Both the position numbers and the translations under genes were made by a program. The notes beneath the pieces were generated by a model. It was not told the DNA's origin. It did not search any database and saw only the letters and a list, made by a program, of their open reading frames with translations. A stretch of DNA of 11,129 nucleotides, from the IMG/VR virus record IMGVR_UViG_2617270947_000015, one strand, 5' to 3'. The DNA is from a virus (lineage: Duplodnaviria; Heunggongvirae; Uroviricota; Caudoviricetes). Position 1 is the first letter of the stretch. Every line of letters starts with the position of its first letter. Positions 1 through 11,129 of the stretch are shown in pieces.

Positions 1-327
1 TCACTTTTTCCAGAGGCGGTCGAACTCCGCCTTCGCAAAATAAGCGGAAGCCTGGCGAAGGATATCGTTACTGCGGCGCAGTTCACGATTTTCACGTTCC
101 AGCTCTTTCAGACGCTGACGTTCAGCGGTGGTGAGCCCTCCATCACCGCCCCCGGTATCCCGCTCATGCTGGCGAACCCAGACACGCAGAGTCTCCGGCG
201 TACAGCCAATCTTTGGAGCAATGGAACAAATTGTCGCCCATTGTGAGTCATATTCGCTCTGACTTTCCAGAACCATACGGACTGCCCGTTGACGGACTTC
301 GGGGGAAAAACGAGTATTTTTAGTCAT
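1..327 (-). CDS. IS3-family transposase OrfA (108 aa, HTH protein)
   Basis: Translation [21 protein letters not shown]...[32 protein letters not shown] has the typical IS3-family OrfA HTH plus leucine-zipper layout. It lies 54 bp inside the terminal inverted repeat. Confidence 0.85.
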
Positions 328-381
328 CCTGTTTACCTCTTTCTCAGGAAGTTTAGTCTCCAGGATTCCCGGGGCGGTTCA
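1..381 (-). mobile_element. Partial IS3-family insertion sequence (IS629/IS1203/IS3411-like); one terminus at 381, remainder off the left edge
   Basis: Read on the minus strand from 381 the sequence is TGAACCGCCCCGGGAATCCTGGAGACTAAACTTCC...AGGTAAACAGG-ATG, which matches my recollection of the IS629-type terminal inverted repeat followed directly by orfA. The orfA ORF is complete; orfB would lie beyond position 1. Confidence 0.8.
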
Positions 382-716
382 GGGGCTTCGTTCGTCCTGA
401 AAAACAGAATCTGCAAAATTTTGCCGAAATTATTCCGGTTATTTCCGGCCTTACTGGCGGGAGTGAAACCAATATTGTTAACGCCAGAGCGTTGCAGATG
501 TTTGATGATAAAAAGGGAGTAAATTTAACTTACACCCCTGACGGCAATCAGAATATGAGCATTATCTCTGAGTCAGGTTTCTACAAACTAATAAAAACAA
601 AAAGCGCCCCGTTGCCGGAGCGCCTTTGTGAACAATTAACCTACTGCGCAAAAAATGAATCTGAGCAGTGGGATTATATCAACCATGTGGAGAAGCGCCA
701 CAATTGCCGAATAACG

Positions 717-2309: not shown

Positions 2310-2609
2310 ATGAAACTTAAATATTCTGGCTTAACTGCCAGTGGCAAAACTCGCACTAAATTCATGCGCGGTGATATTTACCGCGACCAGTACGGCGGCA
2401 CGGTAATGATTAAGGGCGTGGAGGAACGGCGCGTAACCTACCGTCGTGAAGGCTACGAATATGATTGCGTGATGCCTGTTTATCAGTTCGATCGTGATTT
2501 TTCTCTGGTGCAGGCCGTACCGCGTAACGTGCCCACCAGCAGGGAGAAAGCACGCGCCAATATTCAGGAAATAAAAAAGATGCTTAACGTATTCAGGGGT
2601 AAGAAATGA
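2310..2609 (+). CDS. Hypothetical protein (99 aa) immediately upstream of and coupled to the primase gene
   Basis: GGAGA Shine-Dalgarno upstream; its stop overlaps the primase start at 2606. Translation MKLKYSGLTASGKTRTKFMRGDIYRDQYGGTVMIKGVEERRVTYRREGYEYD.... Confidence 0.6.
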   Translation: MKLKYSGLTASGKTRTKFMRGDIYRDQYGGTVMIKGVEERRVTYRREGYEYDCVMPVYQFDRDFSLVQAVPRNVPTSREKARANIQEIKKMLNVFRGKK

Positions 2610-4360
2610 AACTGGCACCGAACGTAAAAAAACAACCACGCGGAATAAAACACAAAGACACAGAGGTAATTATTTTCGCGGGTAGTGATGCGTGGTCACA
2701 TGCAAAACAGTGGCAGGAGCAGGACGGCCCCGCATCCGGCGATAATGTGCCGCCTGTGTGGCTTGGGCCAAATCAGCTTGCCGAACTTGATGCGCTGAAA
2801 ATTGTTCCGGATGGGAAAAAGCGCGTAAGGCTGTACCAGGCCGGAGAACTGGATTTAGTGGAGACCAAAAAGATTGGTCAGAAGCTGGCGGCGGCAGATA
2901 TTCAGGACGCAAATTTTTACCCTGATGGTATGCACGGTCAGAAGGTGGAGAACTGGCGCGAATATCTGGCCCGTGAGCGCCAGAATCTTTCTGATGGTCT
3001 GGTCATTGAGCTTCCGGTAAAGCAAAAGGCGCAACTTTCGCAGATGGCGGACAGTGAGCGCGCGCAGCTGCTTGCCGATCGCTTTGATGGCGTTTGCGTA
3101 CATCCTGAAAGTGAAATCGTTCACGTATGGCGCGGCGGGGTATGGTGTCCGGTCAGCACAATGGAACTTAGCCGCGAAATGGTGGCGATCTATTCAGAGC
3201 ACAGGGCCACTTTCAGCAAGCGCGTAATCAATAACGCCGTGGAAGCGTTAAAAGTTATTGCCGAACCAATGGGCGAGCCGTCCGGCGATTTGCTGCCGTT
3301 CGCCAATGGTGCGCTTGACCTGAAAACGGGGGAATTTTCCCCGCACACGCCGGAGAACTGGATCACCACGCACAACGGCATTGAGTACACGCCACCAGCA
3401 CCAGGGGAGAACATCCGCGATAACGCGCCAAACTTTCATAAATGGCTTAAGCACGCAGCCGGAAAAGACCCGCGCAAGATGATGCGTATATGTGCCGCGC
3501 TGTACATGATTATGGCGAACCGGTACGACTGGCAGATGTTTATTGAGGCCACCGGAGACGGCGGGAGCGGTAAAAGTACATTCACGCACATAGCCAGCCT
3601 TCTGGCAGGGAAACAGAACACGGTAAGCGCTGAAATGACATCGCTTGATGATGCTGGTGGACGTGCGCAGGTTGTCGGGAGTCGTCTTATCGTCCTAGCT
3701 GACCAGCCGAAATATACAGGCGAAGGAACGGGCATCAAGAAAATCACGGGCGGTGACCCCGTGGAAATTAACCCGAAATACGAAAAGCGTTTCACGGCTG
3801 TAATCAGGGCGGTGGTGCTGGCGACCAACAATAACCCGATGATATTCACCGAACGGGCCGAAGGTGTGGCACGTCGTCGCGTGATTTTCCGTTTCGACAA
3901 TATCGTCAGTGAGGCCGAAAAAGACAGGGAGCTACCGGAAAAGATCGCGGCTGAAATCCCTGTCATTATCCGCCGATTGCTGGCGAACTTTACCGACCCT
4001 GAGAAGGCACGGGCTTTACTACTGGAACAGCGTGACGGTGATGAAGCACTGGCAATAAAGCAACAGACGGATCCGGTTATTGAGTTTTGCCAGTTCCTGA
4101 ATTTTCTGGAGGAAGCGCGCGGCCTGATGATGGGGGGCGGTGGCGATTCAGTGAAGTACACGACCAGGAACAGCCTTTACCGCGTCTATCTGGCGTTTAT
4201 GGCATACGCAGGCAGGAGCAAACCGCTAAACGTAAATGACTTTGGAAAGGCTATGAAGCCTGCCGCAAAAGTTTACGGACATGAATATATTACGCGGAAA
4301 GTTAAGGGGGTAACGCAGACTAACGCAATAACAACAGACGAGTGCGACGCGTTTTTATAA
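2606..4360 (+). CDS. Satellite/phage replication protein: P4/D5-family primase-helicase-like NTPase (584 aa)
   Basis: Walker A GDGGSGKST and Walker B-like RLIVLAD motifs in the C-terminal half, with the overall D5_N / P4-family primase C-terminal (SF3 helicase-like) layout. It is followed immediately by an iteron array. The N-terminal ~300 aa are of unclear domain identity. Confidence 0.85.
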   Translation: MKLAPNVKKQPRGIKHKDTEVIIFAGSDAWSHAKQWQEQDGPASGDNVPPVWLGPNQLAELDALKIVPDGKKRVRLYQAGELDLVETKKIGQKLAAADIQDANFYPDGMHGQKVENWREYLARERQNLSDGLVIELPVKQKAQLSQMADSERAQLLADRFDGVCVHPESEIVHVWRGGVWCPVSTMELSREMVAIYSEHRATFSKRVINNAVEALKVIAEPMGEPSGDLLPFANGALDLKTGEFSPHTPENWITTHNGIEYTPPAPGENIRDNAPNFHKWLKHAAGKDPRKMMRICAALYMIMANRYDWQMFIEATGDGGSGKSTFTHIASLLAGKQNTVSAEMTSLDDAGGRAQVVGSRLIVLADQPKYTGEGTGIKKITGGDPVEINPKYEKRFTAVIRAVVLATNNNPMIFTERAEGVARRRVIFRFDNIVSEAEKDRELPEKIAAEIPVIIRRLLANFTDPEKARALLLEQRDGDEALAIKQQTDPVIEFCQFLNFLEEARGLMMGGGGDSVKYTTRNSLYRVYLAFMAYAGRSKPLNVNDFGKAMKPAAKVYGHEYITRKVKGVTQTNAITTDECDAFL

Positions 4361-4648: not shown

Positions 4649-4927
4649 ATGCACACTTCAGGGAAATTTAATAAATCACTCAAAAAACGCAGAGACAGAA
4701 CAGAACCGAAATATCGCGCGTTAGACATGACAGAGCACGCTTTAAAGGTGGCAATCAGAACGATAGACCGCCACGCGGGGGAAGGATACGCGAAAGCACA
4801 TCCCGAACTGATAAGCGCATTCATGACCACGACGGCGGCAAATTTTGCCACGCTGACAGAGCGGGAGATTGCCGAAGCGGAACAGGTAACAACCATCAAC
4901 GTTAAAACCGGAGAGGTGGAATCATGA
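4649..4927 (+). CDS. Hypothetical protein (92 aa)
   Basis: GAGGGGG upstream of the ATG at 4649. Its stop overlaps the SSB start (ATGA at 4924). Translation MHTSGKFNKSLKKRRDRTEPKYRALDMTEHALKVAIRTIDRHAGEGYAKAHPEL.... Confidence 0.55.
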   Translation: MHTSGKFNKSLKKRRDRTEPKYRALDMTEHALKVAIRTIDRHAGEGYAKAHPELISAFMTTTAANFATLTEREIAEAEQVTTINVKTGEVES

Positions 4928-5346
4928 CAGCACAGATAGCAGCTTACGGGCGGCTGGTGGACGACCCGCAGGTAAAACAGACCAGCAAGGGCACACCGAT
5001 GACGCTGGCGCGTATGGCGGTCCCCCTTCCGTGCAGCCAGGCAGATGACGGAACGGCGACGATGTGGTTATCCGTCCTGGCATTTGGCAGACAGGCCGAA
5101 GCACTGGAAAGGCACCGCAAGGGTGAACTCCTGAGCGTGGCGGGTAACATGCAGATCAGCCAGTGGACTGGGCAGAACGGAGAAACGCGGCAGGGCTGGC
5201 AGGTTATCGCAGACAGTGTAATCAGTGCGCGAACGGCGCGACTGGGCGGCAAAAAAGGTCAACAGGGCCAGGCTACTGACGCGCTGAACAGGGCAAAACA
5301 ACAGGCGGGGAATGATGATCCGTACGGGGATAACATACCGTTTTAA
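4924..5346 (+). CDS. ssb: Single-stranded DNA-binding protein (SSB-like, 140 aa)
   Basis: GGAGAGG Shine-Dalgarno. OB-fold-like core (LSVLAFGRQAEALERHRKGELLSVAGNMQISQWTGQNGETRQGWQVIADSV) followed by a Gly/Gln-rich linker and an acidic C-terminal tip DDPYGDNIPF, resembling the SSB DDDIPF tail. Confidence 0.8.
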   Translation: MTAQIAAYGRLVDDPQVKQTSKGTPMTLARMAVPLPCSQADDGTATMWLSVLAFGRQAEALERHRKGELLSVAGNMQISQWTGQNGETRQGWQVIADSVISARTARLGGKKGQQGQATDALNRAKQQAGNDDPYGDNIPF

Positions 5347-5362
5347 GCGACGAGAGACAGAA

Positions 5363-5384
5363 GCCGGAGCAATCCGGCTTTTTT
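5363..5384 (+). terminator. Rho-independent terminator after the replication operon
   Basis: Stem GCCGGA (5363-5368) / TCCGGC (5373-5378), loop GCAA, then TTTTTT (5379-5384). Nearly identical to the hairpin at 7804-7826. Confidence 0.7.
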
Positions 5385-5450
5385 ACGGGTCCTCCTGGCG
5401 GGGTGGGCCTGAACACGGGGCGGGAAGCGCGGAAAAAAGCGCATTTTTGT
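5385..5450 (+). other. Degenerate cos-like sequence (direct, diverged copy of the cos site at 7827-7900)
   Basis: ACGGGTCCT...ACGGGGCGGGAAGCGCGG...GCATTTTTG aligns with ACGGGTCCTTTCCGG...ACGGGGCGGCGACCTCGCGGGTTTTCGCTATTTATG of copy A, but with many substitutions inside the cosN-equivalent. Confidence 0.5.
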
Positions 5451-5565
5451 GATTTTATCGTCATCATCATCATGAGCGTAATTTATTGTTTTTAATTGTT
5501 TTGATGCAAAAAAGATGATGGTTGTGGTTAATTTTCGTTCGACATCTTTGCAGGCAGATAAAAAA

Positions 5566-5602
5566 GCCCGATAAGGTCAGAGGTGGCTTATCGGGCTTTT
5601 GC
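5566..5602. terminator. Strong hairpin flanked by A/T runs on both sides (potentially bidirectional terminator)
   Basis: Perfect 10-bp stem GCCCGATAAG (5567-5576) / CTTATCGGGC (5588-5597), preceded by AAAAAA and followed by TTTTG. It lies in a ~400-bp stretch with no convincing ORF. Confidence 0.6.
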
Positions 5603-5677
5603 ATATGAGGCTTTTTGGTGCACTGACACACATGAGCGGGATCATCATTTCATAATTTGCAACACAACTCAATATCA

Positions 5678-5726
5678 TTGCACAAAACGCAATCCTGATT
5701 ATAATCAGAGCTGGATGAACATCCAG
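5678..5726 (+). promoter_or_regulatory. Candidate promoter of the capsid operon with an operator palindrome at the predicted start
   Basis: TTGCAC (5678-5683), 16-bp spacer, perfect TATAAT (5700-5705). A perfect 7-2-7 palindrome CTGGATGAACATCCAG (5711-5726) follows immediately downstream of the -10. Confidence 0.5.
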
Positions 5727-5761
5727 TTATGATTTTTTAAGTCGAAGAGGAATTTCTTACT

Positions 5762-5968
5762 ATGGCTGAAGAGAAAAAAGGCGGTGTTTCGGTGTACATA
5801 AGCCCCGAAATCGTGGAGGTGCTCAAGCAGCGCCACAAAAAAAACTATGAGGCTGGCGTGGCGGCTGGACTGGATCCGCTGATGACGCCGGAGCCGTCGA
5901 TAGGTTCACTTGTACGCTCTTATTTACTTGCGGCGCTTGGGATGCATAAAAATTATGGGGGTGAATAA
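5762..5968 (+). CDS. Hypothetical small protein (68 aa), translationally coupled to the major capsid gene
   Basis: GAGGAA Shine-Dalgarno; its stop TAA overlaps the capsid gene ATG at 5968 (TAATGG). Translation MAEEKKGGVSVYISPEIVEVLKQRHKKNYEAGVAAGLDPLMTPEPSIGSLVRSYLLAALGMHKNYGGE. Confidence 0.55.
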   Translation: MAEEKKGGVSVYISPEIVEVLKQRHKKNYEAGVAAGLDPLMTPEPSIGSLVRSYLLAALGMHKNYGGE

Positions 5969-7023
5969 TGGCAGGCAAAGCAACGGCACTTAACACTAAC
6001 CAGCTTTTCATGTACCTGAATCGCGGGGATATTGCGGATTTTAAATTCAGCCCTCTGTTTACTACGCTGTTTTTCCCGAACGTGGCGACATTCAGCACGC
6101 AAAACATCATGCTGGATACCCTGGACATTGAAGAAGTCACCATGTCGGCGTTTTGTTCGCCTATGGTGGGTAGCCAGGTTCAGCGCGATAAAGGGTACGA
6201 AACCAGCACGATTAAACCTGGCTACATGAAGCCAAAGCACGAAATCGATCCAACGAAAACCATCATGCGCATGGCTGGAGAAGATCCGGCACAGCTTAAC
6301 GACCCTACCTATCGCCGTATGCGCCTGATTACTGGCAATATGCGCCGCCAGATAAACGCCATAAAAGCGCGCGTGGAATGGCTGGCGGTAAATGCGGTAA
6401 CGACCGGAAAAAACATCATTGAGGGCGAAGGCATAGAGCGCTATGAAATCGACTGGAAGATACCGGAAAAAAACATCATAGAGCAGGCCGACGGGAAAAA
6501 ATGGTCAGAGCAGGACAAAGAAACCCACGATCCAATCTATGATATCGAACTATACGCCGATCAGGCTGGTTGCCCCGCAAACGTCATGATTATGGGCGCT
6601 GAGGTATGGCGAACGTTACGCAGCTTTAAAAAATTCCGTGAGCTGTACGATCTTTCCCGTGGTTCAGAATCCGCCGCCGAACTGGCCTGTAAAAACCTGG
6701 GCGAAGTGGTGAGCTTTAAAGGCTATCTTGGTGATCTGGCCCTTATCGTCTATTCCGGCAAATACACTGACAGCGATGGTACCGAAAAATATTTCCTTGA
6801 GCCTGATTTGCTGGTCCTGGGCAACACCAACAATAAAGGGCTGGTGGCCTATGGTGCGATAATGGATCAGGAAGCGGTAAGAACGGGCGCAACACAAAAC
6901 ATGTTTTACCCGAAAAACTGGATTGAGGACGGCGATCCGGCGATTGAGTACGTGCAGACACACAGTGCACCGCAGCCGGTACCGGCAGATATTCGCAAAT
7001 TTGTTACCGTCAAAATTGGTTAA
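5968..7023 (+). CDS. Major capsid protein, lambda gpE-like (351 aa)
   Basis: Collinear similarity to lambda gpE as I recall it: FKFSPLF..LFF, TIKPGYMKPKHEIDP, EDPAQLNDPTYRRMR, KWSEQDKETHDP, LRSFK, SFKGYLGDLALIVYSGKY, LVLGNT, YPKNWIEDGDPA, with similar length. Strong GGGGGTGA Shine-Dalgarno. Confidence 0.85.
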   Translation: MAGKATALNTNQLFMYLNRGDIADFKFSPLFTTLFFPNVATFSTQNIMLDTLDIEEVTMSAFCSPMVGSQVQRDKGYETSTIKPGYMKPKHEIDPTKTIMRMAGEDPAQLNDPTYRRMRLITGNMRRQINAIKARVEWLAVNAVTTGKNIIEGEGIERYEIDWKIPEKNIIEQADGKKWSEQDKETHDPIYDIELYADQAGCPANVMIMGAEVWRTLRSFKKFRELYDLSRGSESAAELACKNLGEVVSFKGYLGDLALIVYSGKYTDSDGTEKYFLEPDLLVLGNTNNKGLVAYGAIMDQEAVRTGATQNMFYPKNWIEDGDPAIEYVQTHSAPQPVPADIRKFVTVKIG

Positions 7024-7035
7024 CGGGGGGATTCT

Positions 7036-7371
7036 ATGGACACTCCATACATTGAGTTATTTGCAGGCAGTCAGCAGGTCGCCACGACGCTGGTACATTT
7101 TGCCGCTGATGCTGGCGTTATTCAGGAATTTACCCCGCTGATGCTGGCAGACAATGGCGAGTTTAAGCCGTGGGATGGTCAGGAATCTGGCAAGGCTGTT
7201 TATCTGACCTCGTACCCTGTGGACACGTCAAAGCAGAAATCAGCACAGTGTTACAAGACGGGGATTTTCAATATTGCCGCCGTTAACTGGCCTGAGAGCG
7301 TCGACACCGATGCGAAAAAATGCGCCGCCTTTGCGGGTTCTGGCGTATCCGTTCAGCCGCTGGCCCGATAA
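7036..7371 (+). CDS. Head decoration protein, lambda gpD-like (111 aa)
   Basis: Same length class as lambda gpD with shared motifs TPLML, WDG, YKTGIF (lambda YKSGTF), WPE, DAKK.AAFAG. GGGGGG Shine-Dalgarno. Adjacent to the gpE-like gene. Confidence 0.75.
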   Translation: MDTPYIELFAGSQQVATTLVHFAADAGVIQEFTPLMLADNGEFKPWDGQESGKAVYLTSYPVDTSKQKSAQCYKTGIFNIAAVNWPESVDTDAKKCAAFAGSGVSVQPLAR

Positions 7372-7383
7372 GCAGGGGGAACG

Positions 7384-7797
7384 ATGGCAACGAATGAAAG
7401 CGTCATGACGCTACCGCTGGCGAGTAAATTTAAAGCCGAAGCGCGGGCAATGGCTGACAGAGGTTTATCAACCTACGAGGCCGTATATCAACTCAACAAA
7501 CTGGAAGAGCAGGACAAGCCGCGCGCTGATGCGATTATGGCGCTTCATGAACATAACGACTATCAGCCGCTGTTACGTGCAATGGCAAACGTGCCATGTA
7601 TTAGCGTCGATAATGCTCGTGAAATCCTGAACATGACCATAGAGCAGGAGCGCCCAAAGGTTGCGCCGGAGCTTACCGCAGCCTTTGAAAACTTTATGGA
7701 CATGCACAGCCCGAAAGCCGTATCACCCGGCATGGCATACGACGGCAGAAACCAGGGCGATGAAGGCGACGTCGATCGCATACTGAAAACCATCTGA
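7384..7797 (+). CDS. Hypothetical protein (137 aa), last gene of the capsid operon, immediately upstream of cos
   Basis: GGGGGAACG Shine-Dalgarno. Translation MATNESVMTLPLASKFKAEARAMADRGLSTYEAVYQLNKLEEQDKPRADAIMALHEHNDYQPLLRAMANVP.... The terminator hairpin and cos site follow directly. Confidence 0.6.
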   Translation: MATNESVMTLPLASKFKAEARAMADRGLSTYEAVYQLNKLEEQDKPRADAIMALHEHNDYQPLLRAMANVPCISVDNAREILNMTIEQERPKVAPELTAAFENFMDMHSPKAVSPGMAYDGRNQGDEGDVDRILKTI

Positions 7798-7803
7798 CAT
7801 AAG

Positions 7804-7826
7804 GCCGGAGAAATCCGGCTTTTTTT
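7804..7826 (+). terminator. Rho-independent terminator fused to the upstream edge of the cos site
   Basis: Stem GCCGGA (7804-7809) / TCCGGC (7814-7819), loop GAAA, then TTTTTTT (7820-7826). Confidence 0.7.
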
Positions 7827-7900
7827 ACGGGTCCTTTCCGGCATATGGACCCGTTACGGGGCGGCGACCTCGCGGGTTTTCGCTATTTATGACGTTTTTC
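7827..7900 (+). other. Lambda-type cos site (cosQ-cosN plus start of cosB), intact copy A
   Basis: ACGGGTCCTTTCCGG...GTTACG-GGGCGGCGACCTCGCGGGTTTTCGCTATTTATGA. The 12-nt lambda cohesive-end sequence GGGCGGCGACCT is exact at 7859-7870, and the flanks match the lambda right-end/left-end junction as I recall it. A Nu1-like gene follows, as in lambda. Confidence 0.85.
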
Positions 7901-7959
7901 CGTGAAGGTGACACCACCACCACTTGATTAATATTTAACCATGCGGTTAAGGTAACATT

Positions 7960-8400
7960 ATGATTGATAAAGCTTGTTTTGTAAGTCAGCAGGAAATAGC
8001 TGAACATTTCAAGGTTAACAGAACCACTATTCGCGCATGGACCAAACAGGGGATGCCGTATCTTAATGCGGATCGCGGAAAGTCTGGCGGTTATCACATC
8101 GGGCATACATTGCTTTGGTCTTCAGGTAAAAGCCGTCTTGAGGCCATCAGATATCACGTAGAAACCAGTGCGCTGGAAAAAATTATGTTTGCCAGGCTGC
8201 TTTCATCTGAGCGTGACGAGTACTCCAGTGAAGAAACAGAACATCGATTTGATGAAGGTTTGCAGATTTACGGCTATTCACCGGAAGATGTGAGCAAGGC
8301 ACGAAATAAAATGGCTGGCTTTCTGGCTGGGTGGCGTCATGCCGTAAGCGTTCGCCGTGCCAGCATGGAACAATCAGTCGTTACAGAACAGCAAAGTTAA
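7960..8400 (+). CDS. Small-terminase-like DNA-binding protein (lambda Nu1-like winged HTH N-terminus, 146 aa); candidate cos-recognition / packaging-redirection factor
   Basis: N-terminus VSQQEIAEHFKVNRTTIRAWTKQGMPYLNADRGKSGG aligns with lambda Nu1 VNKKQLADIFGASIRTIQNWQEQGMPVLRGGGKGN. It sits about 60 bp downstream of cos, in the lambda Nu1 position, but no large-terminase gene follows. Confidence 0.7.
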   Translation: MIDKACFVSQQEIAEHFKVNRTTIRAWTKQGMPYLNADRGKSGGYHIGHTLLWSSGKSRLEAIRYHVETSALEKIMFARLLSSERDEYSSEETEHRFDEGLQIYGYSPEDVSKARNKMAGFLAGWRHAVSVRRASMEQSVVTEQQS

Positions 8401-8430: not shown

Positions 8431-8580
8431 CAATACAACAACCACGTATTTTTTTAAAACTATTTGATTCAATTAGCATTTTTTTATTTTTAGCATCAAA
8501 AAAACACTATCAGGTTGTTGTATTGCTCTTTATTTTTACTTAGTTATCAAATGGATATGACAAACAATTAAACAACAACC
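8431..8580. repeat. AT-rich non-coding region with three copies of a GGTTGTTGT-type motif (candidate cosB-like protein-binding sites for the inverted cos copy)
   Basis: CAATACAACAACC at 8431-8443 and its perfect inverse GGTTGTTGTATTG at 8513-8525, 69 bp apart, plus AAACAACAACC at 8570-8580. The sequence between them is extremely AT-rich. Confidence 0.5.
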
Positions 8581-8595
8581 TCCCTCTAAAAAAGC

Positions 8596-8663
8596 TCATA
8601 AATAGCGAAAAACCGCGAGGTCGCCGCCCCGTAACGGGCCATAATTCCAGGAAGGACCCGACG
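8596..8663 (-). other. Second lambda-type cos site in inverted orientation (copy C)
   Basis: Minus-strand reading is GGGTCCTTCCTGGAATTATGGCCCGTTACG-GGGCGGCGACCTCGCGGTTTTTCGCTATTTATGA. The reverse complement of the 12-mer, AGGTCGCCGCCC, is at 8618-8629. About 65 bp are near-identical to copy A, but this copy lacks the upstream terminator hairpin. Confidence 0.8.
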
Positions 8664-8693: not shown

Positions 8694-8975
8694 ATGACAG
8701 AAGCCGAAATACTGCGATTAATCCGCCGCGTTGCCGGAATCAGCCAGCAGCATGACGAACAGGCCACGCAGCCGGACAGCGTGACCGCTGAAAATTATGT
8801 GCGTGTTGTTGCTGAGGTGATGCGCCGTGATGGTATCCAGCTTAATGATGTTGATATGCGCGACATACGGATCCGCGTTCTGGAAATGCTGGCCTACAAT
8901 CGCCGCGTTGAACTGTATCGGGAGAAAGAAAAAATAACGTACCACTGGAAGAAGCCGGAGCGGTTGCGGCGGTAA
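8694..8975 (+). CDS. Hypothetical protein (93 aa)
   Basis: GGGGG Shine-Dalgarno 5 nt upstream of the ATG. Translation MTEAEILRLIRRVAGISQQHDEQATQPDSVTAENYVRVVAEVMRRDGIQLNDVDMRDIRIRVLEMLAYNRR.... Confidence 0.55.
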   Translation: MTEAEILRLIRRVAGISQQHDEQATQPDSVTAENYVRVVAEVMRRDGIQLNDVDMRDIRIRVLEMLAYNRRVELYREKEKITYHWKKPERLRR

Positions 8976-9587
8976 CTGGTTGATATTTTCGAAATTCGCC
9001 AGCGGCGAACATCGGGGAAACCAGCCTAACCCGTTGATATTTTCGGAAACCTCAATTTGAGGAAGTCGGCGCGGTAACTCGCTGAACTTAAAGCAAAGCG
9101 CAAAATTGCGCTTGCTGAATAATCATTATGATTACGCAGATGATTAAGGAATGACCGAAGGCGGAAATTCGCCTGTGGTTAATGGGGGAGTTGCAGATCT
9201 GCAACTCGACCATGAAACTACGGAAACTACCCGTAGTTTGGGTAGTAAGAGTAACACCCAGATTTTGGGGCTTACTCGTGATACCCAAATTTGGGGTATC
9301 GGTGGCAACCATAACGACTTTCGTTACGGTTGATGCTTTTACCCCATTGGGGGAAAGGTATTACGATAATCATAACACCTACCGAACAGGTAAAGCCCAC
9401 CAGCCTGATTAACGTTTAACCGGAAAAAAATTCCGGTAGGTGGGGATCCCCATATAGACATTAACGCCCCTCATGAATTGGTGCGCTTCCCCCTGGAAAG
9501 ATGATCCGCCTGTATATTTCTTGTGTCTATTTGTTCCACGTTGTTTCATACGGTGCACCGAACGGTGTAGTTAATGGTGTAGTCAAT
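8966..9587. repeat. Repeat- and palindrome-dense non-coding region between the last island ORF and phoQ (candidate att arm / regulatory region)
   Basis: Direct repeats GTTGATATTTTCG(A/G)AA at 8979-8994 and 9033-9049; GCGGTAACT at 8968-8976 and 9071-9079. Palindromes AAGCGCAA-aa-TTGCGCTT (9096-9113), GTTGCAGATCTGCAAC (9190-9205), AAACTAC-cc-GTAGTTT (9224-9239), CCGGAA-aaaaa-TTCCGG (~9420-9437), CGGTGCACCG (9551-9560). Tandem GGTGTAGTTAAT / GGTGTAGTCAAT (9564-9587). Confidence 0.5.
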
Positions 9588-9668
9588 TTGCGATTTTTGG
9601 CACTTTTTCAGTGTAGATTATTTAATTAAATCAATGGTTTGTCTTGATATAGTGATAAAAGGGCATAT

Positions 9669-11129
9669 TTATTCATCTTTCGGCGCAGAATGCTGGCGAC
9701 CAAAAATCACCTCCATCCGCGCACCGCCCAGCATGCTCTCTCCGGCGACGATTTTACCCTCATATTGCTCGGTGATTTCGCGGGCTACCGCCAGCCCTAC
9801 ACCTTGCCCAGGGCGTAAAGTATCAACCCGTTGACCACGGTCGAAAATGACCTCTCGCTTGCTTAATGGAATACCGGGGCCATCATCCTCGACCACAATA
9901 TAGAGATGCTCGTCGGTTTGCCTTGCAGAAATTTCGACAAACTCGAGGCAATATTTACAGGCATTATCCAGCACGTTGCCCATCACCTCGACAAAATCGT
10001 TCTGCTCACCGACAAAGCTGATCTCTGGCGAAATATCGAGAGAGATATTGACCCCTTTGCGTTGATACACTTTGTTCAGCGCTGAGGTGAGATTGTCCAG
10101 CAGTGGGGCGACCGGATGCAGCTCGCGGCTGAGCAATGTCCCGCCGCGCATACTGGCACGATGCAGGTAGTAGCCAATTTGCTGTGAAATGCGGCTGATT
10201 TGCTCCAGCATTACCGGCTCAGCATCACTGACGCTCATCTTTTCACTACGCAGAGAACGCAGCGTACTTTGCAGCACCGCCAGTGGCGTTTTCAGACTAT
10301 GGGTCAGGTCGGTGAGCGTCGTACGGTATTTGTCGTAACGTTCGCGTTCACTTTTTAACAATCGGTTCAGGTTTCGTACCAGACTGGTCAGTTCTCGCGT
10401 TGTGGCTGGATTGAGCAATTCGCGGTTATGTTCTTCCAGTTCGCGGACTTCTTTTGCCAGGGCTTCGATGGGGCGTAAACTCCACCAGGCGGCGACCCAC
10501 AGCAGCGGGATCACTAACAGCAGATTGGCTGAGAGCACATAGATAAACCAGCTCCAGACCATATAGGAACTTTTTAGCTCCACCGGAATGGTATCCACCA
10601 CCACAATGGTTAATTTTGGCATCCGCGATGTTGCCGGGTAGACGTTTACTGCCACCGAGTGGGTCATCTCCGCGTCGTCATCATCTTCCCGCACTTCCTG
10701 CAACTGTTGCTGTATCGAATGATCTCCACTCAGCAAGAGGCTGGTATCGTTAACATCCGCTTCAATTTCATGAAAACCATTCGATTTCAGCCAGTCAGGC
10801 TGGATCATCTTCATCAGCCAGGGCACGTCACGTTGCGCCCATAAAAGCTGCCCGTTCTCATCATAAATTAGCGTCATGGTGGGGCTTTGCTTGTCGATAT
10901 TTTCGGGTAACTCGACATGCAACTTATTGTTTTCCCACTTCGCAAGGGTATAGAACAGATTGCTCTCGCCACGTAACAGCCGAAACGTAGTTTTATCGAA
11001 ACTGACGCTATAACCGATCAGCGCGACCATTCCGTAGGCAAGCGAAAGCACCAGTACTACCGCTGCCGTTGCCAACAGAAAACGTACCCGCAGCGAGAGC
11101 GGGAAAAAAAGACGCAGTAATTTTTTCAT
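9669..11129 (-). CDS. phoQ: Sensor histidine kinase PhoQ of the PhoP/PhoQ two-component system, complete, 486 aa
   Basis: Translation [83 protein letters not shown]...HSAPKDE matches E. coli PhoQ: two transmembrane segments, periplasmic sensor domain, HAMP, DHp histidine box ([12 protein letters not shown]) and HATPase domain. The start codon is the last three bases of the window. Confidence 0.97.

What the first reader, a model, noticed from the sequence alone, without database searches (positions are those of the whole stretch)
7384..8400. Nu1-like wHTH protein without a partner large terminase, plus a 137-aa unknown beside cos: candidate packaging-hijack pair
The 146-aa protein has a Nu1-type N-terminal DNA-binding domain but an unrelated C-terminus, and nothing resembling gpA follows. 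An orphan small-terminase-like protein next to cos is what would be expected of a factor that recruits the helper's terminase to satellite DNA. The 137-aa protein encoded immediately upstream of cos has no recognisable family and could be a partner or an interference factor.
Basis: inference. Interest (0 to 1): 0.7.

Follow-up and report, generated by a model that had tools for sequence, protein, structure and literature searches.

The report
Known Rpp packaging hijacker, scaffold-like neighbour
The 146-residue protein is RppA, the already characterised satellite protein that grabs a helper phage's small terminase and redirects DNA packaging to the satellite's own cos site. Its 137-residue neighbour is not a packaging partner but a shortened copy of the phage's internal head-scaffolding protein.

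Summary
ORF 7384-7797 (137 aa), a lambda-type cos site (cohesive end 7859-7870) and ORF 7960-8400 (146 aa) are all present, and no large-terminase gene follows.

The window is an EcCICFT073-type phage-inducible chromosomal island (PICI) at the roxA/phoQ site. The 146-aa protein is 99% identical to EcCICFT073 c1503, which is RppA. It matches the RppC crystal structure 6HLK at E=6e-31 and keeps R21/T22, L51 and F121. Its ATG lies at cos bp 102 and its cosB is identical to that of EcCICFT073. The packaging-hijack idea is therefore correct but was published in 2018-2019, as were both cos sites.

The "pair" idea is not supported:
- The 137-aa protein (c1501) ends the island's capsid cluster (gpE-like, gpD-like, then c1501).
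- A strong terminator hairpin separates it from cos and rpp.
- Its residues 24-120 are homologous to the C-terminal scaffold part of lambdoid gpC/Nu3 (BLASTP 7e-10, PHROG 2e-9, hhalign 96%).
- In 491 of the 591 E. coli genomes that carry it, it sits beside a full-length Nu1-type terS, not rpp.
- Expressed alone it did not inhibit lambda in the published screen.

The scaffold homology was not found in the papers I searched, and its function is untested. Overall: already known, low interest.

The parts
5968..7023 (+). gpE-like major capsid protein (351 aa; homolog of EcCICFT073 c1499). Context: first large gene of the island's capsid cluster.
   Evidence: Pfam Phage_cap_E 5.9e-52 and phrog_29 3e-108. 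98% identical to the CFT073 island copy, 44% to helper phage 4 MCP and 42% to lambda E.
7036..7371 (+). gpD-like head decoration protein (111 aa; homolog of c1500).
   Evidence: Pfam HDPD 1.3e-17 and phrog_49 2.6e-27. 99% identical to the CFT073 island copy and 31-34% to helper or lambda D.
7384..7797 (+). 137-aa protein (homolog of c1501). Truncated homolog of the C-terminal part of the lambdoid gpC/Nu3 internal scaffold, and last gene of the capsid cluster.
   Evidence: phrog_1999 1.4e-61. phrog_53 (head maturation protease) profile positions 495-567 of 583, E=2.3e-9. BLASTP against helper phage 4 gpC residues 416-493: 36% over 83 aa, E=7e-10. hhalign against scaffold alignment: 95.9%, E=6e-9, 95 columns. 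A repeat HMM built from phage scaffolds hits only this ORF in the window. dN/dS 0.35-0.40.
7801..7828 (+). Intrinsic-terminator-like hairpin (GGCCGGAGAAATCCGGCC stem-loop followed by a T run) between the 137-aa gene and cos1.
   Evidence: RNA fold -17.4 kcal/mol, z=-3.0, 0 of 200 shuffles fold as well. The simple terminator scan did not list it.
7828..7923 (+). cos1: cosQ/cosN (cohesive end 7859-7870 = bp 1-12) plus the PICI-specific cosB (proposed R3-PICI, bp 48-65 = 7906-7923, AGGTGACACCACCACCAC).
   Evidence: Exact GGGCGGCGACCT match. Nearly identical to EcCICFT073 cos1 over the aligned stretch (cosB GGTGACACCACCACCACTTGATTAA the same in both), and aligns with the phage 4 cos up to about bp 40. 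Coordinates. Function of cos1 and its cosB shown in PMC6092414 and PMC6739421; R3 proposal in PMC9026076.
7960..8400 (+). rppA (146 aa): the redirecting-phage-packaging protein.
   Evidence: 99% identical to CFT073 c1503. PDB 6HLK RppC E=5.7e-31. R21, T22, L51 and F121 present. ATG at cos bp 102.
8435..8660 (-). cos2: second, inverted cos site (cohesive end 8629 down to 8618) with its own cosB-like array of three GGTTGTTGT repeats.
   Evidence: Inverted repeat of 72 nt, 86% complementary with cos1. Exact cohesive-end match. Repeats located. Homology to the cos1 cosB of TerS-type islands. cos2 of EcCICFT073 is described in PMC6092414.
8694..8975 (+). 93-aa conserved island ORF of unknown function (phrog_1561), the last conserved ORF before attR.
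   Evidence: phrog_1561 3e-57. 92-94% identical in the CFT073 and O157-type islands.
9661..9670 (+). attR core (GGGCATATTT) overlapping the phoQ stop codon; right end of the island.
   Evidence: One mismatch to the published EcCICFT073 att core GGACATATTT (PMC6092414 supplementary table).

Best explanation
The window carries an EcCICFT073-type cos PICI. The 146-aa protein is RppA.

Mechanism, established experimentally for the 99%-identical protein and inferred here by identity:
- The RppA dimer binds the N-terminal wHTH domain of the helper's small terminase (lambda, phi80 or phage 4 TerS/Nu1).
- The mixed Rpp-TerS DNA-binding unit no longer recognises the helper's cosB. It recognises the island's own cosB just right of cosN (about 7906-7923).
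- The TerS C-terminus still brings TerL, which nicks cosN (7859-7870), and island concatemers are packaged into helper capsids.
- Helper DNA packaging is blocked.

The 137-aa protein is not part of this device. It is the last gene of a three-gene capsid cluster (gpE-like, gpD-like, then itself) that ends at a terminator hairpin before cos1. Residues about 24-120 are homologous to the C-terminal scaffold region shared by lambdoid gpC protease and gpNu3. This covers one 'IMAL-E-x-G...PGMTV-x-AR-x-L' repeat plus the 'FExFMxxHSP' tail.

My inference, not shown, is that it acts inside procapsids as a short scaffold-like adaptor that binds capsid protein, either the island's own gpE homolog or the helper's. 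It does not act on cos or terminase.
For: Rpp identity:
- 99% identity to c1503.
- 6HLK E=5.7e-31; TerS DNA-binding domains 1J9I and 6HN7_B match only weakly.
- Nu1 similarity is confined to residues 8-71.
- R21, T22, L51 and F121 are kept, and the ATG is at bp 102.
- cos1 including cosB matches CFT073 (cosB stretch the same).
- same locus and gene order as EcCICFT073.

Published function:
- PMC6739421: c1503 blocks lambda and phi80, binds TerS, and is required for cos1-cosB recognition. The R21A/T22A mutant loses redirection.
- PMC6092414: cos1 and cos2 deletions.

137-aa protein:
- homology to gpC/Nu3 C-termini.
- terminator hairpin after it.
- conserved E-D-137 order in TerS-type, RppA-type and RppB-like islands.
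- 491 of 591 genomes pair it with a full-length terS.
- purifying selection, dN/dS 0.35-0.40.
- all-helical model with a low-confidence C-terminal half, as expected of a scaffold.
Against: Nothing tested here contradicts the Rpp identification; binding and packaging were not tested for this allele, whose last residues differ (SVVTEQQS versus SADTEQ).

For the 137-aa protein:
- Pairwise BLAST to lambda Nu3 itself is not significant.
- Only one scaffold repeat is statistically detectable.
- The confidently modelled N-terminal 50 residues have no counterpart found.
- Gene order (E, D, 137) is the reverse of phage order (C/Nu3, D, E), and no protease is present.
- Published work found no phenotype for the adjacent capsid genes c1499 and c1500, and EcCICFT073 DNA is packaged in phage-sized heads. 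A capsid-assembly role therefore has no experimental support yet.
Confidence: 0.85

Rival explanations
1. The 137-aa protein is a CpmB-like decoy. By carrying the helper scaffold's capsid-binding C-terminal region without the rest, it competes with helper gpNu3/gpC and so disturbs or resizes helper procapsids. This would be an interference factor acting on assembly, not on packaging.
For: It shares the C-terminal region with the helper's own gpC (36% identity; hhalign). It evolves faster than its neighbours: 37% against about 85% identity in L006, and dN/dS 0.35-0.40 against 0.05-0.18 for the capsid gene. The analogy with SaPI1 CpmB and the 80alpha scaffold (PMC5644958, cited) comes from my own knowledge.
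Against: pBAD18-c1501 alone did not reduce lambda plaques. Deletion of c1503 alone restored lambda titres nearly to those on the island-free host. Packaged DNA was phage-sized with lambda, and no island-monomer band appeared with phage 4.
Confidence: 0.2
2. One reading: the 137-aa protein is a partner of Rpp, or a cos-flank factor, that works with it in packaging redirection.
For: It is adjacent to cos1 and rpp, in a conserved order, in all islands examined.
Against: A terminator hairpin lies between the two genes. The same gene at 90% identity sits beside a full-length Nu1-type terS in 491 genomes, against 67 of the rppA type. RppA alone plus a cos1 plasmid is enough for redirection. The protein's homology is to a head scaffold, not to a DNA-binding or terminase protein.
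Confidence: 0.07
3. The 146-aa protein is a conventional small terminase whose large subunit lies elsewhere.
For: Weak hits to TerS families over the N-terminal HTH (phrog_57 4e-8, Pfam Phage_Nu1 0.025).
Against: Similarity stops at residue about 71 and the Pfam score is below the cutoff. No terL is present in the island. Full-length identity is to RppA and RppC. By contrast, the O157-type island protein aligns with Nu1 over 180 aa.
Confidence: 0.01

Closest known systems
RppA (c1503) of EcCICFT073 (Fillol-Salom et al. 2019, PMC6739421)
   Same: 99% identical. Same position (ATG at cos bp 102), same cos1 and cosB, same island type and same chromosomal site.
   Different: Only the last residues differ (146 versus 144 aa). 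The island here has an IS3 element at its left end and a different cosB at cos2.
RppC (PDB 6HLK; complex with lambda TerS 1-98, 6HN7)
   Same: Homologous over residues 2-125 (E=5.7e-31): wHTH followed by a helical dimerisation region.
   Different: Clearly diverged from RppC in sequence (the paper gives 43.65% identity between RppA and RppC). RppC is 153 aa and binds lambda TerS more tightly according to the paper.
Lambda gpNu1 (TerS)
   Same: N-terminal winged helix-turn-helix (30% identity over residues 8-71); gene placed directly after cos.
   Different: No similarity after residue about 71, so no detectable counterpart of the TerS C-terminal (TerL-binding) region, and no adjacent terL.
Lambdoid gpC/gpNu3 internal scaffold (lambda Nu3; CFT073 phage 4 S49 peptidase C-terminus), for the 137-aa protein
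   Same: Shares one scaffold repeat and the C-terminal FExFMxxHSP...L-x-x-x tail. Helical and low-confidence model.
   Different: 137 aa against about 200. A single detectable repeat rather than three. A distinct N-terminal 45 residues. Not nested in a protease gene. Lies after D and E rather than before them. No significant pairwise hit to lambda Nu3 itself.
SaPI1 CpmB (analogy only, from my own knowledge; PMC5644958)
   Same: A small helical satellite protein that resembles the helper scaffold's capsid-binding end.
   Different: No sequence comparison was made here. EcCICFT073-type islands do not make small capsids with lambda.
SaPI Ppi (analogy only)
   Same: A satellite protein that binds the helper TerS and blocks helper packaging (paper's discussion).
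   Different: Ppi only blocks. Rpp also converts the helper TerS into the satellite's own recognition subunit.

Membership tests
Rpp (redirecting phage packaging) proteins of Gram-negative cos PICIs | Full-length sequence homology to RppA, RppB or RppC | tested here: met
   99% identity to CFT073 c1503; E=5.7e-31 to 6HLK over residues 2-125.
Rpp (redirecting phage packaging) proteins of Gram-negative cos PICIs | N-terminal TerS-like wHTH with alpha2 residues R21/T22 (needed for cos1 recognition), plus L51 and F121 (mutated in the paper as heterodimer-interface residues) | tested here: met
   Residues present. Nu1 similarity over residues 8-71. Their roles are described in PMC6739421.
Rpp (redirecting phage packaging) proteins of Gram-negative cos PICIs | Gene lies directly downstream of a cos site with helper-like cosQ/cosN but a non-helper cosB (start codon about bp 102) | tested here: met
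   layout as described in PMC9026076.
Rpp (redirecting phage packaging) proteins of Gram-negative cos PICIs | No TerL-binding C-terminal domain and no island-encoded TerL | tested here: met
   No similarity to Nu1 beyond residue 71. No terminase large subunit among the window ORFs or in the syntenic islands.
Rpp (redirecting phage packaging) proteins of Gram-negative cos PICIs | Binds helper TerS, blocks helper packaging and promotes island cos1 packaging | not testable with these tools
   Shown for the 99%-identical c1503 in PMC6739421.
Rpp (redirecting phage packaging) proteins of Gram-negative cos PICIs | Resides in a PICI (int/alpA, primase-ori, att site) | tested here: met
   D5-type primase, DUF4222 and SSB. 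Synteny with EcCICFT073 and the roxA/phoQ site. attR core. int and alpA lie outside the window, beyond an IS3 end.
Conventional Nu1-type small terminase | Full-length homology including the oligomerisation and TerL-binding C-terminal half | tested here: not met
   Pfam Phage_Nu1 14.7 bits against a cutoff of 30, profile positions 3-36 only. BLASTP covers residues 8-71 only. Contrast the O157-type island TerS, 36% over 180 aa.
Conventional Nu1-type small terminase | Partner large terminase gene adjacent | tested here: not met
Lambdoid gpC/gpNu3 scaffold (for the 137-aa protein) | Sequence homology to the shared C-terminal scaffold region | tested here: met
   phrog_53 C-terminus E=2.3e-9; BLASTP 7e-10; hhalign 95.9%.
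Lambdoid gpC/gpNu3 scaffold (for the 137-aa protein) | Full-length architecture (about 200 aa, several repeats, in frame with or nested in the S49 protease gene, upstream of D and E) | tested here: not met
   137 aa, one detectable repeat, no protease gene, and gene order E-D-137.
Lambdoid gpC/gpNu3 scaffold (for the 137-aa protein) | Is incorporated in procapsids and promotes capsid-protein assembly | not testable with these tools
   No experiment available. Only the over-expression plaque assay exists, and it was negative for interference.

The most novel reading that the evidence does not exclude
The 137-aa c1501-family protein is a satellite-encoded, truncated copy of the helper's internal scaffold. 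Together with the island's own gpE- and gpD-like proteins it would enter or seed helper procapsids, as a CpmB-like competitor or a cognate mini-scaffold. This would be a so far uncharacterised capsid-level layer of piracy, shared by both Rpp-type and TerS-type E. coli PICIs (about 11% of complete E. coli genomes). It could explain why these islands retain capsid genes that have shown no phenotype.
Probability: 0.25. Interest if true: 0.5.

Novelty: already known. Interest (0 to 1): 0.15.

Why it matters
The central item (Rpp, cos1 and packaging redirection) adds nothing beyond Fillol-Salom et al. 2018/2019 and Murialdo & Feiss 2022. This window is another copy of the model island.

The only increment is an annotation. 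c1501, carried by 591 of 5,426 complete E. coli genomes and labelled "hypothetical" or "head-tail connector", is a Nu3-like scaffold fragment linked to the island's gpE/gpD homologs. That gives a concrete, testable hypothesis for the still unexplained capsid genes of classical E. coli PICIs.

Tried and rejected
- PDB sequence search, Pfam, NCBIfam and PADLOC for the 137-aa protein gave no hits.
- tblastn of the 137-aa protein against 50,697 phage records gave a single weak hit.
- An exhaustive HMMER search of 1.8 billion representatives found only 8 proteins, so the family is tiny.
- AlphaFold without an alignment gave pLDDT 42. With a 12-sequence alignment it gave pLDDT 64. Foldseek against BFVD and PDB gave nothing below E=2, so fold comparison is uninformative.
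- BLASTP of the 137-aa protein against lambda Nu3 was not significant. The link to Nu3 rests on intermediates and profiles.
- Rfam found no RNA family in the window.
- I first read 'c1501::tetA' as a knock-out showing that c1501 is dispensable. I rejected this after reading the primers: the cassette sits just after the stop codon, so c1501 is intact.
- I considered the inverted second cos a possible new feature. It is already published as cos2.
- A search for phages sharing the cos2 cosB found none beyond cosN plus about 40 bp.
- The exact published att core is not present; a one-mismatch version lies at the phoQ stop codon.

Full report
**1. What is in the sequence**

The window contains, on the + strand:
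- a DUF4222 gene (2310-2609);
- a D5-type primase (2606-4360);
- an SSB (4924-5346);
- a 68-aa ORF;
- a gpE-like major capsid protein (5968-7023);
- a gpD-like decoration protein (7036-7371);
- the 137-aa ORF (7384-7797);
- the 146-aa ORF (7960-8400);
- a 93-aa ORF (8694-8975).

phoQ lies on the - strand from 9669. The lambda cohesive-end sequence GGGCGGCGACCT occurs exactly twice, at 7859-7870 (+) and 8618-8629 (-), against 0.03 expected by chance. Both copies lie in a 72-nt inverted repeat that is 86% complementary. No terminase large subunit is encoded anywhere in the window.

**2. What the island is**

The region is syntenic with islands inserted between roxA (ycfD) and phoQ in many E. coli genomes. 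One of these is the model PICI EcCICFT073 in strain CFT073, fetched as L003.
- Window 5560-8396 is 95.6% identical to L003.
- The right end carries GGGCATATTT at 9661-9670, overlapping the phoQ stop codon. This is one mismatch from the published att core.
- The left end of the window (1-382) is an IS3-family end. It abuts island sequence at the position that, in L001, lies between the alpA-like HTH gene and a BRO-N pseudogene.

**3. The 146-aa protein is RppA**

- It is 99% identical to the CFT073 protein at the same position. That protein is c1503/RppA (PMC6739421). Only the last few residues differ.
- It matches the RppC crystal structure 6HLK/6HN7 at E=5.7e-31 over residues 2-125.
- Similarity to lambda Nu1 is confined to residues 8-71 (30% identity), and Pfam Phage_Nu1 scores below its cutoff.
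- R21 and T22 (required for cos1 recognition) are present, as are L51 and F121 (heterodimer-interface residues mutated in the paper).
- Taking 7859 as cos bp 1, the ATG is at bp 102, the position given for rpp genes by Murialdo & Feiss.
- Their proposed R3-PICI (bp 48-65) is AGGTGACACCACCACCAC at 7906-7923, the same as in EcCICFT073 cos1.

The published mechanism is as follows. Rpp binds helper TerS. The heterocomplex recognises the cosB of cos1 but not the phage cosB. TerS still recruits TerL. This was shown genetically and structurally, and I transfer it to this allele by identity.

**4. cos2 is also already known**

Fillol-Salom et al. 2018 described two functional cos sites in EcCICFT073. 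Deleting cos1 reduced transfer, deleting cos2 increased lambda-mediated transfer, and the double deletion abolished it. The 2019 paper showed that only the cosB of cos1 responds to RppA. The inverted repeat is conserved in CFT073, in an O157-type island (L002) and in L001.

**5. The 137-aa protein**

It corresponds to c1501, which is 137 aa in the 2018 supplement, and is 90% identical to it. Standard libraries give nothing, but four lines of evidence link it to the lambdoid internal scaffold:
- PHROG 53 'head maturation protease' matches it at profile positions 495-567 of 583 (E=2.3e-9).
- BLASTP against the S49 peptidase (gpC) of CFT073 helper phage 4 aligns residues 49-131 with gpC residues 416-493 (36% identity, E=7e-10), with a second weaker match to the preceding gpC repeat.
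- A profile-profile comparison of the family (A5) with three scaffold sequences (phage 4 gpC C-terminus, a stand-alone 195-aa relative P0041, and lambda Nu3) gives 95.9% probability and E=6e-9 over 95 columns.
- An HMM built only from the roughly 36-residue repeats of the phage scaffolds finds one copy, residues 49-82. This is the only ORF hit among 206 six-frame ORFs of the window.

The direct lambda Nu3 comparison is not significant.

Further properties:
- The family is very small in a search of 1.8 billion representatives.
- It is present in 591 of 5,426 complete E. coli genomes.
- The gene is under purifying selection, but less strongly than its neighbours: dN/dS 0.35-0.40 against 0.05-0.18 for the capsid gene.
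- In a diverged island (L006) it is 37% identical, whereas the capsid, decoration and Rpp proteins are about 85% identical.
- The AlphaFold model is all-helical, confident only in residues 1-50, and has no fold matches.

**6. Is it a partner of Rpp?**

The evidence says no.
- A strong hairpin followed by a T run (7801-7828; -17.4 kcal/mol, z=-3) separates it from cos1 and rpp. The 12-nt spacings of E/D/137 tie it to the capsid genes.
- In the O157-type island the same gene (90% identical) is followed by cos1 and a full-length Nu1 homolog of 180 aa (36% identity to lambda Nu1 over its length).
- That configuration occurs in 491 genomes, against 67 for the rppA configuration.
- pBAD18-c1501 (pJP2216) was among the clones tested, and only c1503 inhibited lambda.
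- RppA alone in trans stimulated transfer of a cos1 plasmid.

One caveat matters. The widely used 'c1501::tetA' island does not disrupt c1501. The primers place tetA immediately after its stop codon, so no loss-of-function test of c1501 exists.

**7. Most likely mechanism for the 137-aa protein (inferred)**

It probably acts as a short scaffold-like adaptor inside procapsids, contacting capsid protein through the region it shares with gpC/Nu3. It would be either cognate to the island's own gpE homolog, which is only 42-44% identical to helper capsid proteins, or a competitor of the helper scaffold. Published data give no phenotype for c1499 and c1500 and show phage-sized packaged DNA, so this role is unproven.

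**8. Verdict**

The finding is a correct rediscovery of a published system, so its novelty class is "already known". The scaffold homology of c1501 is a modest new annotation. I found no paper linking Nu3 and PICIs, and no description of c1501 as a scaffold homolog in the papers I read.

Noticed in passing
window 8435-8660 (- strand), compared with L002 9526-9677 and L003 8100-8340: The cosB side of cos2 holds three GGTTGTTGT copies at cos2 bp about 50-58, 109-117 and 187-195. Their orientations are forward, reverse, forward, the same pattern and roughly the same spacing as lambda R3/R2/R1 (lambda layout from memory). This segment is homologous (78.7% over 155 nt) to the cos1 cosB that precedes the full-length terS of O157-type islands. 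It ends in a vestigial ATG-GCG-TAA where terS would start. CFT073's cos2 carries a different cosB, so cos2 specificity appears to be modular between islands.
   Followed up: partly
L003 8100-8340 (CFT073 cos2) compared with L003 44650-44935 (phage 4 cos): CFT073 cos2 has three CCGGACAT/CATGTCCGG motifs in an R3/R2/R1-like layout. They resemble the CGTGTCGG/CCGACATG/CATGTCGG motifs of its helper phage 4 cosB. The papers describe the island cosB as unidentifiable or completely divergent.
   Followed up: partly
L006 2277-2440: A diverged island has a 146-aa Rpp that is 84% identical to the window's (RppB-like). Its cos1 has a different cosN sequence but keeps GACACCACCACCACTTGATTAA. That conservation fits the proposed Rpp-binding R3-PICI site.
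   Followed up: partly
window 7908-7935: A sigma-70-like promoter match (GTGACA, 16-nt spacer, AATATT) has its -35 hexamer inside the proposed Rpp-binding site of cosB, about 25 nt upstream of the rpp ATG. Rpp might regulate its own transcription. The scan's overall count is at chance level.
   Followed up: no
window 1-382: An IS3-family end (99.7% identical to IS3-family copies in CFT073) abuts the island's left regulatory region. The int and alpA-like genes, if present, lie outside the window, so mobility of this copy cannot be judged.
   Followed up: partly
window 7384-7797 compared with L006 1873-2277: The 137-aa gene diverges much faster than its neighbours: 37% against about 85% protein identity in L006. 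The N-terminal IM-x-LPLASKF, the central repeat and the C-terminal DRILKTI stay conserved.
   Followed up: yes
window 8694-8975 and 5762-5968: Two conserved small island ORFs have unknown function: 93 aa (phrog_1561) and 68 aa (phrog_3255). The 68-aa ORF immediately precedes the capsid gene and is only 56-69% identical between islands.
   Followed up: no
window 8975-9660: About 700 bp of apparently non-coding island DNA lie before attR. It includes a 19+19 nt perfect-spacing palindrome at 9179-9216 and short direct repeats (TAAC..GTTGATATTTTCG at 8973 and 9027). RefSeq annotates a 52-aa hypothetical CDS here in L001.
   Followed up: no
window 5228-5560 compared with L003 4843-5261: Window 5228-5560 has no BLAST match to the CFT073 island. 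The corresponding CFT073 stretch holds the perC-family regulator gene (L003 4960-5208), and no perC-like gene was found among the window proteins scanned, so perC appears to be missing here.
   Followed up: no
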